From Ylistrum balloti (Eukaryota): a DNA stretch of 64,000 nt. Made by a program: the position numbers. The stretch spans positions 62,001 to 126,000 of the forward strand of contig NW_026782182.1 of the NCBI RefSeq assembly GCF_031769215.1, read 5' to 3'. This document shows positions 12,001 to 27,000 of this stretch, piece after piece. Position 1 is the first letter of the stretch. Every line of letters begins with the position of its first letter.

Positions 12001-15000
12001 TTACAGCTTTCAGAAGTACGCCCTACACATAATAACATTATAGATGAAGTTCAAACCTTCATTTATGTGGTCACTACACATTTATCTCTAAAATTGGATC
12101 AAAAGTGAAAGAGCTGTACAGACATGATTTGGTTAAGGTTGTAACAAAAGCACCACTCACAAAAAAAGTTGTTCTTTAAACATCATTGCAGAATATTTGG
12201 ATGAAAACAACAGAATTTATCCAGAGGCAATTTTTTCAAGGTCAGAAAAATGCACCCATTTCTAATCAAGTTTCAATGTCAATGTTTTCATTAAACAAAG
12301 CTGTTAAAAGTCCATGCCTAGCATTAAGTCCATCCATTTCTATTCCTGCTCAAAATATATCAACTAGATATGTTATTTCACCATCATGTAATGAACCCAC
12401 ACCTGATTTTTTATAAAGCAATGCTGTGGTGGTCCAATGGGCTTGTTGCAGAATGAAAATAGCAAACAGTGTATTATAAAATATATCAAAAGCAGTATAT
12501 ATACCACAATATACCAATGTTAAATTGTAAACATGCATTTACTAACCTGACCAATGATAAATTGGAAACATTTACTAACCTGGTCTTCTGGTCTCATGTC
12601 GTTGTCAACCTCACTATATACTGGAGAAAAGCACTGAGAATGGGAGACTACTCTACATTTGCTGATCAATTTTTCAGATCCCTCCTCTAATTTTTTTCTT
12701 TTCTTTGGAGAACTAAGAGCAAATTTCCTAGATCTTTTCTTGAATTTTCCTCTTTTAGTCCCTGGAACTAGTACTTGTTTATCTAAGTTAGTGTCCTCGT
12801 GATCCCTTGGTTCTGTCAATACTCTTGTTTTCCTTCCCAGAACAGAATCTTGGTTAATAATTCTTCCGTGTATATGCTCATGGCCTTTTCTAATATCTAC
12901 ATAAAAACATAATGAAAAAAATAATTAGTGTAAAATGAAACATGAGGCCAGGTTTAGTTTAGTCACAATTGTTTGATCAATACAGAAGGGGAAAATTTTT
13001 AGATATTTACCCCTATCCCACCCTTTTCTGTCAGAAAAGTCAGACCTCTGGTTTAAACACAATAAATTTTCTCTCTTTAAATAAATTTGGACAAAATTCT
13101 GTTAAGGAAAATGAAGGAAATCAAATATCTGATAAAATCCCCTGAGGCCCTTGGGGGACCAAGACCCACCATTTATACAAATTGTTGTCTCTTCCTTAAG
13201 GATATTTCTGACCAAATTTGATCAGAATACCTTCATCCAAACAGAAGGAGAAAGGATTTTAAAGCAATTGCTTCATTTCCCCTATATGACCCTGTTCCGC
13301 TGTCCACAGGCCTAGGAAGCCAAGTGCTTTTACATAACAGAGTCCTCGATGGTAGCTTGTAACAACAAAATGGGAACCAACATGGTATAATTGGTGGGTT
13401 GCTTATCCGGGACCATGAAATTTGCACTGAACTGTGGTAAAAATAAAGGATCAATGTATGTGTACATATCCCAGTTGTAATTATAAGATACAATGCAGAC
13501 TTACAACTGATATGTAATGTATAAATACAAGGAAGACTGATTATTTTCAAACTGCGAATAACGCTGGTATAGACTTAAGTTCCCACTTGTACCACATATT
13601 TAAGCACAAAATGATGTATCCAAGCGAACTTGACATAAGACAAACATCATTACTTTCAACCTTTGATAGTTTTTTCTTTCTCTAAAAAGCAATGCTGTCA
13701 TATGATATCAACTGCCATGCCTGCGCATGTGAACCTGTGACTGTTTCTTTATAACTTACCAGCTTCCCCTCCAGGGACTCTGGCTTTCTCTCGACAACCT
13801 CTCCTTAAATTTTTATTCAGCAGTTCTTTTCCTGGTTCAAGTCTGTACACTTCATTCCTATCTGTCTGTACTTTATCTGTTAAGTTATCCATTTTACTCT
13901 CCTCAAACTCATTCCCTTCATTCTCCAAAGGTTCTGCTGCCACAGATCGCATGAACATTTTTCCATGTTCTGTGGAGACAAAGAGATTGTCATCTTGCGC
14001 AATCACCATTTGGGTCGAGTCAGGGTAACCATCAGTCACTGGTTCGTCTTTCACCACAATATCTGGTGTTATTTGAGATTGTTCGTTGATGACATCTGAG
14101 ATTACAGATTCATTTACATTCAGACTCATCCCACTTTCAGAAGGAACATACTTTTTAATGACATCACCACATTCTGTTGGTGGGATGATCATCTTTTTAG
14201 TGTGCTCATTGATGTGTATGCTGCTAGAACTGTCAACATCACAATCAGAATTAGCAGATCTAGAATCACTGTCAGAAGGAACACATTTACTGGTGACATC
14301 ATCATATTCTGTGTGGAGACTCGCCAAGTTTGCAGTCTGTTCACCAATATCTGCTATAATGTCACTACCAGAGTGTACAGAACTATCTGTTACAGCACTG
14401 TCATCTGTTGGAATTTTACCTTCATCATCTGTAGTGAATTCTGGGTCATTCAGTCTGTCCTTCATAGTATAGGCTTTATTACTTGTGAGTACCTCATGTT
14501 GACCACTGACATCCGCCGTTTCTGTTTCATCAGTCTGTACACACTGACTGATGATGCCATCAGTTTTTATGAAGTCTTCTACTGATTCTAGGTCTATATG
14601 TTCATCTAGTGAAATCTCACTACCGACAGACTCTTGCTCATAAAGCATAAAAGGCTGACTAGAGTCCTCAGAGTTAATTGTCATTTGAATCTGGTCTTCG
14701 GAAACTTCTGTGTCCTGTTTAGATGGAAAGGGTGGCCATGGTCCAAAAGTGATTTCTATATCATCATTTTCAACTTCACTTTCATTGTTGGTATCGGAAG
14801 AATACTCTCCTTTCATATCTGACTCCATGGTGGTGTTGCTGTCTGAGACAATCATAGCTTCCTCCATCTCGACCTAGTCATCTGTTTCTATTACTTGGTC
14901 AAAAACATTTCATATATTTCTTCAGCATCAACTGGAAGAGCATGGCATATATCTGAAAAATGAACATGAGATTATTTCTGATGTGAAAAAGAGTGAACTT

Positions 15001-24000: not shown

Positions 24001-27000
24001 AGACATTGGTTCACCATCCTTGTCTCACACTTACAGACATTGGTTCACTGTCCTTGTCTCACACTTACAGACATTGGTTCACTGTCCTTGTCTCACACTT
24101 ACAGACATTGGTTCACTGTCCTTGTCTCACACTTACAGACATTGGTTCACTGTCCTTGTCTCACACTTACAGACATTGGTTCACTGTCCGTGTCTCACAC
24201 GTACAGACATTGGTTCACCATCCTTGTCTCACACTTACAGATATTGGTTTACCATCCTTGTCTCACACTTAAAGACATTGGTTTACCACCCTTGTCTCAC
24301 ACTTACAGACATTGGTTCACCATCCTTGTCTCACACTTACAGACATTGGTTCACTGTCCGTGTCTCACACGTACAGACATTGGTTCACTGTCCTTGTGTC
24401 ACACTTACAGACATTGGTTCACCATCCTTGTCTCACACTTACAGACATTGGTTCACTGTCCTTGTCTCACACTTACAGACATTGGTTTACCACCCTTGTC
24501 TCACACTTACAGACTTACAGACACCGGTTCACTGTCCTTGTCTCACACTTAAAGACATTGGTTCACTGTCCTTGTCTCACACGTAAAGACATTGGTTCAC
24601 TGTCCGTGTCTCACACGTAAAGACATTGGTTCACTGTCCTTGTCTCACACTTACAGACATTGGTATATCATCCTTGTCTCACACGTAAAGACATTGGTTC
24701 ACTGTCCTTGTCTCACACTTACAGACATTGGTTTACCATCCTTGTCTCACACTTACAGACATTGGTTCACTGTCCTTGTCTCACACTTACAGACATTGGT
24801 TTACCATCCTTATATAACACTTACCGGCATTGGTTTACCATCTTTGTCTAACACTTTCCCCTGCTGTAGCTCGGCTGTGAGTTTAAGGTCTTGTAGCTTC
24901 TCATTGTGTAGCCTGTGATCTGCCTCAAAATCTGTGATGGCACTGCGACAGTTGATGGCGTATCGGTTTCCGAAATAGTGTTGACTTCTGGGAATAAAAC
25001 CTGACAAGACACAATGAGTTGTTACTGCTGCATTGACGTTGAAAATTTGTATCTTCTATTTAGGGCAATGTTGTAATTCGCCATTGGGATACTGTTTCGT
25101 GCTGAATTTTGGAGTGTTGGTTTTTTTACTGGAATATTGTCCATTTTGTAGTTGATATCAGAAAAATATCAGTAATGCAATATATCGTATATCTGTTAAT
25201 TTTCACGGGGCGATATTTTCGCGATTTTCAAATAAAAAACTGTCAAGTTATATTTAACAAATGGAAATTTCGCGATCTGGATGTGAAAGAACATCTGATA
25301 CCTACGTGTCTCTATTTCACAGAGTAAATTTTCGCGCTCAAGTTCATGTACCACGAAATTTCGAAAATATCGTCGTTGCCGCGAAAATAACAGGCTATAC
25401 GATAGTTAGCATTATTTGTGATGTTGTTCACATGTTTAGATAATTTACAGAATCCAATACTAATTTCAGCAACAATTCATTGTTGCGAAAACAACCCAGT
25501 GTAAAAAAATACGCTGTGACTATATTATATAACTACAAGTTTGCATACAATGTATGAGTTTACTTACTTACTTACTATATACCAGGCGGTCATTAACATT
25601 CTAAGTTGAGATATCCGACAAAATGATGAAATTAACGTTAACTTACCTGTATAACCTGGTACCATCTTTTCTAGAAGTTTCTGGTCGCCCCAACTTTGTG
25701 TACGATTCTTTAGAAGATTTGACTTTGAGTGGGAGGGTTCTGAACTAGGGCGTGGTTTCGATAGGTCGGCAAGTACTAATTTTCCAGAGCTGGCTACAGC
25801 GTCATTCTTGAGAAGACAGGATGTAGTGCGACCAAATGTTTCACCAATCTGATACTTAAACTGCGGACAGAACCCACCGTACCTGAAAAACATAAAAGGG
25901 CATTATACACTTGTAACTGCCGTAAAGTTAGGATATCCTTATGACGTCATCAGCTTGATCCAGTCTGTTCACTTGGTGATTATCACAGCAAAAAAAATTT
26001 GGACACAGCTGACAGAACACTAAAAGGTGACTTCAAGTCATTAATGATATGACCAAATTAGAAGTCGAAAAATATTATATGCTTGATCAATCCCATATAA
26101 AAAGAAAATTGACATTGTATGTGTCACGTATCATTGACATTGTATATGTCAGGTATCATTGACATTGTATGTATCACGTATCATTGACATTGTATGTGTC
26201 ACGTATCATTGACATTGTATGTATCACGTATCATTGACATTGTATGTTTCACGTATCATTGACATTGTATGTATCACGTATCATTGACATTGTATATGTC
26301 ACGTATCATTAACATTGTATGTGTCACGTATCATTGACATTGTACGTGTCACGTATCATTGACATTGTACGTGTCACGTATCATTGACATTGTATATGTC
26401 ACGTATCATTGACATTGTATGTATCACGTATCATTAACATTGTATGTGTCACGTATCACGTATCATTGACATTGTATATGTCACGTATCATTGACATTGT
26501 ATGTATCACGTATCATTAACATTGTATGTGTCACGTATCATTAACATTGTATGTGTCACGTATCATTGACATTGTATATGTCAGGTATCATTGACATTGT
26601 ATGTGTCACGTATCATTGACATTGTATGTATCACGTATCATTAACATTGTATGTGTCACGTATCATTGACATTGTATGTGTCACGTATCATTGACATTGT
26701 ATGTATCACGTATCATTGACATTGTATGTGTCACGTATCATTGACATTGTATATGTCACGTATCATTGACATTGTACGTGTCACGTATCATTGACATTGT
26801 ATATGTCACGTATCATTGACATTGTATGTATCACGTATCATTAACATTGTATGTGTCACGTATCATTAACATTGTATGTGTCACGTATCATTGACATTGT
26901 ATGTGTCACGTATCATTGACATTGTATGTGTCACGTATCATTGACATTGTATGTGTCACGTATCATTGACATTGTATGTGTCACGTATCATTGACATTGT

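What the first reader, a model, noticed from the sequence alone, without database searches (positions are those of the whole stretch)
12536..24856. Recurrent 5' splice-site-seeded tandem duplication as a possible genome-wide process
Seen: of the ten internal coding-exon donors modelled in this window, three are tandemly duplicated together with flanking sequence (2, 5 and about 50 copies). No acceptor shows this. Inference: a mutational bias, such as transcription/splicing-coupled slippage or microhomology repair at 5' splice sites, seeds minisatellites at exon ends. The first copy preserves the reading frame, so such events are tolerated and may provide raw material for exon extension or intron gain. 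Three cases cannot establish enrichment.
Basis: inference. Interest (0 to 1): 0.65.

Follow-up and report, generated by a model that had tools for sequence, protein, structure and literature searches.

The report
Splice-donor minisatellites in a scallop genome
Three exon ends in two scallop genes are copied head to tail into the intron behind them, a rare but already described kind of repeat ("mirage" minisatellite) that leaves the proteins unchanged.

Summary
The window is from the scallop Ylistrum balloti. Three of 8 homology-supported donors are tandemly copied, and 0 of 7 acceptors. They are exon 2 of LOC132551788 (2 copies, 33 nt apart), and exon 5 (5 identical donors, 47-nt unit) and exon 3 (34-nt unit, about 50 copies) of a CIMIP2B/FAM166B-like gene. 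In both CIMIP2B arrays the first unit is conserved coding sequence. The RefSeq proteins use the first donor, and four scallop genera keep a 308-aa protein.

This architecture is known: amphioxus "mirages" (PMC3087553) and the human F7, IFI6, CBS, LMNB2 and PDGF minisatellites (PMC1557585).

The genome-wide mutational bias stays untested. About 30% of the window is tandem repeat, so a coverage null gives p = 0.38. A uniform-seed null gives about 0.15 expected against 3 seen (nominal P about 5e-4, post hoc). Donors against acceptors gives p = 0.12.

The best reading is ordinary minisatellite birth in a repeat-rich genome, filtered by selection. Repeats inside ORFs have periods divisible by 3 in 4 of 4 cases; non-coding ones in 4 of 16.

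The parts
12508..12582 (-). Locus 1: two-copy tandem duplication starting at the donor of exon 2 of LOC132551788. Unit 1 is 12579 to 12547 (33 nt), preceded by the last three exon bases. Unit 2 runs from 12546 to about 12511 (36 nt).
   Evidence: Exact 14-mer spanning the donor is repeated 33 nt apart. Units match at 29 of 33 positions. It is one of only 2 loci outside the big arrays with an exact 14-mer repeated within 14 to 100 nt.
12580..12896 (-). Exon 2 (coding) of LOC132551788, a zinc-finger protein gene.
   Evidence: P0065 residues 370-475 map at 100% identity. Junctions.
21337..21571 (-). Locus 2: five 47-nt units. Unit 0 is the last 43 nt of CIMIP2B-like exon 5 plus 4 intron bases. 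Units 1 to 4 are intronic.
   Evidence: Five identical 9-nt donor sites. The distal flank resembles the start of the unit.
21529..21750 (-). Exon 5 of the CIMIP2B/FAM166B-like gene.
   Evidence: Pfam PF10629. tblastn of P0001 and P0069. Junctions.
23165..24858 (-). Locus 3: 34-nt minisatellite. Unit 0 is exonic (24858 to 24825). There are 48 full intronic units plus a partial one, and degenerate copies continue to about 23130.
   Evidence: Among the 48 full intronic units, 41 keep the GT at the start.
24825..25000 (-). Exon 3 of the CIMIP2B/FAM166B-like gene.
   Evidence: The exon-end residues are identical in four scallop genera.
20893..20981 (-). Exon 6 (last coding exon, as far as the stop) of the CIMIP2B-like gene. 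Its acceptor is not duplicated.
22877..23015 (-). Exon 4 of the CIMIP2B-like gene. Neither its donor nor its acceptor is duplicated.
25647..25882 (-). Exon 2 of the CIMIP2B-like gene. Neither its donor nor its acceptor is duplicated.
41730..41791 (-). Coding part of exon 1 of the CIMIP2B-like gene. Its donor is not duplicated.
13760..14867 (-). First coding exon of LOC132551788. Its donor is not duplicated. It holds an in-frame 135-nt duplication at 14131-14312.
9285..11672 (-). Third coding exon of LOC132551788. Its donor is not duplicated. It holds an in-frame 87-nt duplication at 10908-11068.
21917..22577 (.). Ordinary 38-nt minisatellite inside CIMIP2B intron 4. It does not touch a splice site and serves as a comparison array.

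Best explanation
These are "mirage"-type minisatellites. They are ordinary tandem duplications, probably born by slippage or unequal exchange between short similar sequences, whose seed unit happened to include the end of an exon and its 5' splice site. The scallop genome makes minisatellites at a very high rate. Selection then decides which survive. Inside coding sequence, only repeats with a period divisible by three remain. At a donor, the extra copies fall into the intron, the first (exon-side) donor is still used, and the protein is unchanged. Such repeats are close to neutral and can grow to tens of copies by the usual minisatellite turnover. No splice-specific mutational mechanism is needed.

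Shown: the anatomy, the exonic origin of the units, the unchanged annotated proteins, and the period filter inside ORFs.
Inferred: the slippage mechanism, the use of the first donor in vivo, and near-neutrality.
For: - Exonic origin. Unit 0 of both CIMIP2B arrays encodes residues that are identical in Ylistrum, Argopecten, Mizuhopecten and Pecten. All four proteins are 308 aa.
- Unchanged proteins. RefSeq proteins P0069 and P0065 map at 100% and end at the first donor.
- Repeat-rich genome. 20 robust arrays cover 29.8% of the window. A related scallop genome is 21.7% tandem repeat (PMC10225492, passage).
- Period filter. Periods are multiples of 3 at 4 of 4 repeat loci inside ORFs or CDS (12, 36, 87 and 135 nt), against 4 of 16 non-coding loci; Fisher p = 0.014.
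- Similar sequence at the array edges. In the 47-nt array, the distal flank resembles the unit start. In the 34-nt array, the exon unit starts with a one-mismatch look-alike of the donor core.
- Typical minisatellite turnover in the 34-nt array. Copies at both ends resemble the exon version, and the interior is homogenised to a derived variant.
- No constraint on the copied donors. GT is lost in 7 of 48 units, and position +1 is among the more variable sites.
- No common register of the seeds relative to the junction.
- Precedent. In human F7 IVS7, identical downstream pseudo-sites stay silent and the most upstream site is chosen (PMC1557585). Amphioxus mirages do not disturb splicing (PMC3087553; PMC3902484).
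Against: - Under a uniform-seed null, only 0.145 donor-spanning loci are expected among 22 repeat loci, and 3 are seen: nominal P = 4.6e-4, or 8.7e-4 with ten donors. Tolerance explains survival. It does not explain an excess over neutral intron positions.
- Of only two small two-copy duplications outside the big arrays, one sits exactly on a donor.
- No array starts within 100 nt of a splice site without spanning it.
- Use of the first donor rests on annotation and on ortholog length, not on transcript reads from this animal.
- Two of the four ORFs used for the period test (2-913 and 1702-6045) have no homology support.
Confidence: 0.6

Rival explanations
1. A real mutational hot spot at 5' splice sites. 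Transcription- or splicing-coupled stalling or breakage at exon ends, repaired through microhomology, would seed tandem duplications there more often than elsewhere, above all in genes expressed in the germ line.
For: - The uniform-seed null is exceeded about 20-fold: 3 seen against 0.145 expected.
- One of the only 2 small two-copy duplications in 44,934 nt of unmasked sequence lies on a donor.
- Two of 5 donors of one gene are hit, and that gene is a ciliary/flagellar microtubule inner protein gene. Such genes plausibly run high in spermatogenic cells; this is inference, with no expression data.
- The same architecture recurs in amphioxus and in human genes.
Against: - n = 3 in a window chosen for this pattern.
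- The coverage null gives p = 0.38, and donors against acceptors gives p = 0.12.
- The seeds lie in three different registers relative to the junction.
- Amphioxus mirages also occur at acceptor boundaries.
- The units show no unusual single-strand DNA structure: z = -0.7 to -1.3.
- Array units in general are not donor-like.
Confidence: 0.22
2. The arrays are kept because they work. Rows of 5' splice-site-like sequences would bind U1 snRNP and help exon definition, suppress premature polyadenylation, or offer regulated alternative donors.
For: - 41 of 48 units of the 34-nt array still begin with an intact donor core.
- All five donors of the 47-nt array are identical.
- The second donor of locus 1 (+33 nt) and the fourth donor of locus 2 (+141 nt) are in frame without a stop.
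- In human IFI6 and CBS, the first pseudo-sites of such arrays are used (PMC1557585 Introduction).
Against: - The donor positions are not better conserved than the rest of the unit. Position +1 is lost in 6 of 48 units and +2 in 1 of 48.
- Every downstream copy in the 34-nt array brings a stop codon.
- The copies there carry a poorer -3 to -1 context than the authentic site.
- No protein contains the read-through: 0 of 17 hits.
- The other arrays of the same introns have unrelated units.
Confidence: 0.1
3. Assembly or annotation artefact: the repeats or the exon ends are misplaced.
For: Long minisatellites are hard to assemble, so the copy numbers (about 50) may be wrong.
Against: - The exon-side unit is conserved coding sequence, and the copies carry their own substitutions and variant subtypes.
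- Exon ends are fixed by proteins from four genera.
- Three separate loci show the same structure.
Confidence: 0.03

Closest known systems
Amphioxus "mirage" minisatellites (Adh3, troponin C, globins BflGb6 and BflGb9, PGBD5)
   Same: Both are minisatellite-like tandem duplications that span an exon-intron boundary and repeat the splice signal. Regular splicing is apparently undisturbed. Array ends are excluded from homogenisation. They occur in an invertebrate genome rich in minisatellites, and they have been proposed as raw material for intron gain (PMC3087553 section 16; PMC3902484 passage).
   Different: Here the phylum is Mollusca. Only donor boundaries are affected in this window, whereas amphioxus shows both boundaries. 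The units are 33 to 47 nt, against 10 to 160 nt. One array reaches about 50 copies. Instability and splicing were tested in amphioxus but not here.
Human F7 intron 7 37-bp VNTR, with the similar IFI6 (6-16), CBS intron 13, LMNB2 and PDGF minisatellites
   Same: The first monomer spans the exon-intron boundary, so the authentic donor is followed by pseudo-sites. In F7 only the most upstream site is used (PMC1557585 abstract, Introduction and Discussion).
   Different: The F7 unit holds 4 exon nt and 33 intron nt. The two CIMIP2B units are almost wholly exonic: 43 of 47 nt, and 34 of 34 nt. In the 34-nt array the pseudo-sites differ from the authentic site at positions -3 to -1. No functional data exist for the scallop.
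Intron gain or sliding by tandem duplication of an exon segment with a proto-splice site (Rogers model; Drosophila near-intron pairs)
   Same: An exonic segment with a GT-containing motif is duplicated in tandem, and copies become intronic (PMC2891723 abstract; PMC2812944 passages; PMC3265369 seen only in the listing).
   Different: No new intron is formed here. The acceptors are unique sequence, and the exon ends match those of other scallop proteins. The copies only lengthen an existing intron.

Membership tests
Mirage / boundary-spanning minisatellite (amphioxus mirages, human F7 IVS7 type) | Tandem array whose first unit spans an exon-intron boundary | tested here: met
   Three loci. Exon ends were fixed by homologous proteins, and units were listed in register.
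Mirage / boundary-spanning minisatellite (amphioxus mirages, human F7 IVS7 type) | The splice signal is repeated in the intronic copies | tested here: met
   2 copies at locus 1. 5 identical 9-nt donors at locus 2. 41 of 48 units with an intact GT at locus 3.
Mirage / boundary-spanning minisatellite (amphioxus mirages, human F7 IVS7 type) | Regular splicing is kept and the authentic, most upstream site is used | tested here: inconclusive
   RefSeq models P0069 and P0065 use the first donor, and orthologs in four genera are all 308 aa. No protein contains the read-through. No transcript reads were available.
Mirage / boundary-spanning minisatellite (amphioxus mirages, human F7 IVS7 type) | Length polymorphism or instability of the array | not testable with these tools
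   Only one haplotype is in hand, and no other scallop genome can be reached.
Intron gain by tandem duplication (Rogers model) | Both splice sites of the intron derive from the duplicated segment, creating an intron at a new position | tested here: not met
   0 of 7 acceptors have a local copy. The exon-end residues are those of other scallops. Intron positions in other species could not be read.
Transposon-borne or dispersed satellite | The unit is unrelated to the local unique sequence and is present at other loci | tested here: not met
   The units are copies of the adjoining conserved exon ends. No other TRF array in the window shares these units.

The most novel reading that the evidence does not exclude
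In minisatellite-rich invertebrate genomes such as scallop and amphioxus, 5' splice sites of germ-line-transcribed genes are true hot spots for the birth of tandem duplications, perhaps 10 to 20 times the neutral intron rate. Under this reading, mirages are a systematic by-product of co-transcriptional splicing. They would be a steady source of intron growth, alternative donors and, now and then, new exon ends.
Probability: 0.2. Interest if true: 0.7.

Novelty: new member of a known kind. Interest (0 to 1): 0.38.

Why it matters
The case shows that boundary-spanning minisatellites are not confined to amphioxus and a handful of human genes. Three occur within 13 kb of a mollusc genome, two of them in one gene. 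One has inflated an intron about tenfold: roughly 1,660 of 1,809 nt.

It gives natural test material for how a spliceosome picks one site among many. One locus offers 5 identical donors; another offers about 40 near-identical ones.

If a genome-wide count confirmed an excess at donors, it would point to a link between splicing or transcription and structural mutation. It would also point to a concrete route of intron growth. On present evidence this is a tidy example of a known oddity, not a new process.

Tried and rejected
- Hairpin-driven slippage. Single-strand DNA folds of the three loci are ordinary (z = -0.76, -1.31, -0.74).
- General donor-likeness of array units. 3 of 17 units score at least 7 of 9 on the minus strand and 3 of 17 on the plus strand, against a background of 7.5% per 35-nt segment. 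This does not support a donor origin for the other arrays.
- Isoforms using downstream donors. A search with the read-through part of the exon 5 ORF found 17 proteins. None covers more than the authentic exon part. This is weak evidence, because truncated or decayed forms are rarely predicted.
- Known RNA families. 0 Rfam matches in the window.
- Genome-wide studies of arrays at splice donors. Six searches found single-locus reports only. Passages of PMC10078293 and PMC4039745 do not address boundary-spanning arrays.
- Reports in molluscs., and on the term "mirages", found none.
- Scattered copies of the three units elsewhere in the window.
- Orthologous loci in other scallops. 
- Paper supplements were closed. 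The mirage alignments of PMC3087553 (its additional files 4 to 7) were not seen.
- The spliced coding sequences were never joined. Each exon or genomic ORF was searched on its own, and database proteins were mapped back exon by exon.
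Full report
**Source and genes.** The window has no N. It comes from the saucer scallop Ylistrum balloti: the 374-aa minus-strand ORF at 13752-14873 is 100% identical to NCBI protein LOC132551788 of that species (P0065). It is not human sequence. Two minus-strand genes lie under the finding.

- Gene A is LOC132551788. P0065 maps to three coding exons at 14867-13760, 12896-12580 and 11672-9285.
- Gene B is a ciliary microtubule inner protein 2B / FAM166B-like gene (Pfam PF10629; 64 homologs). 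Its RefSeq protein P0069 (308 aa) maps to six exons at 41791-41730, 25882-25647, 25000-24825, 23015-22877, 21750-21529 and 20981-20893.

Exons were searched one at a time, and database proteins were mapped back exon by exon. The joined coding sequence was never built; that step was left out.

- Locus 1 (gene A, exon 2). The donor with its last three exon bases and first 11 intron bases is repeated exactly, 33 nt downstream (last exon base 12580; copy at 12547). The two units match at 29 of 33 positions, with small gaps.
- Locus 2 (gene B, exon 5). There are five 47-nt units from 21571 to 21337. Unit 0 is the last 43 nt of the exon plus four intron bases. Units 1 to 4 differ from it at 0 to 2 positions. 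All five carry the same 9-nt donor (TRF 5.2 copies).
- Locus 3 (gene B, exon 3). The unit is 34 nt. Unit 0 is the last 34 nt of the exon (24858-24825). 48 full intronic units and some degenerate ones follow, down to about 23130 (TRF 49.4 copies). The array fills about 1,660 of the 1,809 nt of intron 3 (coordinates).

Three of 8 donors have local copies, and 0 of 7 acceptors do.

**Origin of the units.** The exon-side units are the originals. They encode residues that are identical in Ylistrum, Argopecten, Mizuhopecten and Pecten, whose proteins are all 308 aa. They are recognisable in more distant bivalves too.

In the 34-nt array, the exon unit starts with a one-mismatch look-alike of the donor core, and the intronic units start with the true core. 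The period therefore equals the distance between two similar short sequences. In the 47-nt array, the sequence just beyond the last unit resembles the unit start. Both patterns fit slippage or unequal exchange between short similar sequences. That mechanism is inferred, not shown.

The copies at both ends of the 34-nt array resemble the exon version, and the interior is homogenised to a derived variant. The same feature is described for amphioxus arrays.

Single-strand DNA folding of the units is unremarkable.

**Consequences for the genes.** The annotated proteins end each exon at the first donor.

- 34-nt array: read-through meets a stop after four codons, and every downstream copy adds a stop. 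All pseudo-donors have a poorer -3 to -1 context than the authentic site. 7 of 48 units have lost GT. I see no sign that the copied donors are conserved.
- 47-nt array: the fourth donor would add 141 nt in frame without a stop.
- Locus 1: the second donor would add 33 nt in frame without a stop.

No database protein shows either in-frame extension: 0 of 17 hits cover the read-through, and the P0065 cluster has one member. This is weak negative evidence.

**Is it more than chance?** The window is extremely rich in repeats. 20 robust arrays cover 29.8% of it, and 27.4% of all 14-mers have a local copy. A related scallop genome is reported as 21.7% tandem repeat (PMC10225492, passage).

- Against simple coverage, 3 of 8 donors is unremarkable (p = 0.38).
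- Coverage is a poor null, because an array adds sequence rather than landing on it. Suppose 22 repeat loci were seeded uniformly in 45,863 nt of unique sequence. Then 0.145 would include one of 8 donors, and P(>=3) = 4.6e-4; with ten donors it is 8.7e-4.
- Outside the big arrays, only two loci carry an exact 14-mer repeated within 14 to 100 nt, and one of them is the gene A donor.

These figures are nominal, because the window was flagged for this pattern. Donors against acceptors (3 of 8 against 0 of 7) gives p = 0.12.

**What speaks for a plain birth-and-filter process.** Repeat loci inside ORFs or coding exons have periods of 12, 36, 87 and 135 nt. That is 4 of 4 divisible by three, against 4 of 16 non-coding loci (Fisher p = 0.014). 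Two of those ORFs lack homology support.

The three donor-spanning seeds lie in different registers relative to the junction. The other arrays are not donor-like.

Tolerance of donor copies has experimental precedent. In human F7 intron 7, identical downstream pseudo-sites stay silent and the most upstream site is chosen (PMC1557585; abstract, Introduction and Discussion read).

**Comparison with what is known.** The architecture is described.

- The F7 paper lists IFI6, CBS, LMNB2 and PDGF as further human genes whose minisatellite starts on an exon-intron boundary.
- In amphioxus, such repeats are called "mirages". They are reported for Adh3, troponin C, two globin genes and PGBD5, at both donor and acceptor boundaries. 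Splicing is undisturbed, and an explicit proposal says they feed intron gain (PMC3087553 section 16; PMC3902484 passage).
- Tandem duplication with a proto-splice site as a source of new introns is argued for Drosophila (PMC2891723, abstract) and for human segmental duplications (PMC2812944, passages).

My searches found no report in molluscs and no genome-wide test of an excess at donors. The library does not hold most subscription papers, and supplements were closed.

**Verdict.** It is a new member, in a new phylum, of a known kind of repeat. The proposed splice-coupled mutational bias is neither shown nor excluded. I put about 0.6 on ordinary minisatellite birth plus selection, 0.2 on a true donor hot spot, 0.1 on a function for the arrays, and a few percent on artefact.

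**Left open.** Orthologous loci in other scallops could not be reached. No transcript or population data were available.

Noticed in passing
window 4989-5355 and 545-712: In-frame coding-type minisatellites inside long minus-strand ORFs. A 36-nt unit, about 8 copies, gives a 12-residue repeat in the 1448-aa ORF 1702-6045. A 12-nt unit, about 13.6 copies, gives a 4-residue repeat in ORF 2-913. Neither ORF has a Pfam family or matches P0065-P0067.
   Followed up: partly
window 1-9284: The last 531 residues of P0065, the zinc-finger part, do not map anywhere in the window. The gene must therefore continue beyond the window start, and the unexplained 1448-aa ORF lies on the same strand inside that intron.
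   Followed up: partly
window 25883-41729: Intron 1 of the CIMIP2B-like gene is about 15.8 kb and holds five large unrelated minisatellites: 26108-27897, 32593-35172, 36211-36977, 37296-37456 and 38319-39694. Minisatellites also fill 59% of intron 4.
   Followed up: partly
window 10908-11068 and 14131-14312: Old in-frame tandem duplications of 87 nt and 135 nt inside coding exons of LOC132551788. They are visible as diverged 29-residue and 45-residue protein repeats.
   Followed up: yes
window 54912-56594 and 61756-63405: Two long minus-strand ORFs with a B-box zinc finger and an NHL or SMP-30-like beta-propeller signature, that is, TRIM-like genes. A 17-nt minisatellite (53203-54144) lies just downstream of the first.
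   Followed up: no
window 17791-18006 and 18802-18966: Related 47-nt-period repeats about 1 kb apart in the intergenic space between the two genes. They may be copies of a dispersed element.
   Followed up: no
window 59001-60327: A complex nested repeat (periods 101, 127, 141, 368 and 476 nt) interleaved with (AT)n runs.
   Followed up: no
window 37296-37456 and 43917-44983: Two arrays whose minus-strand units contain a good donor-like core (7 of 9 consensus matches) although no exon is known next to them. The number is within chance expectation.
   Followed up: partly
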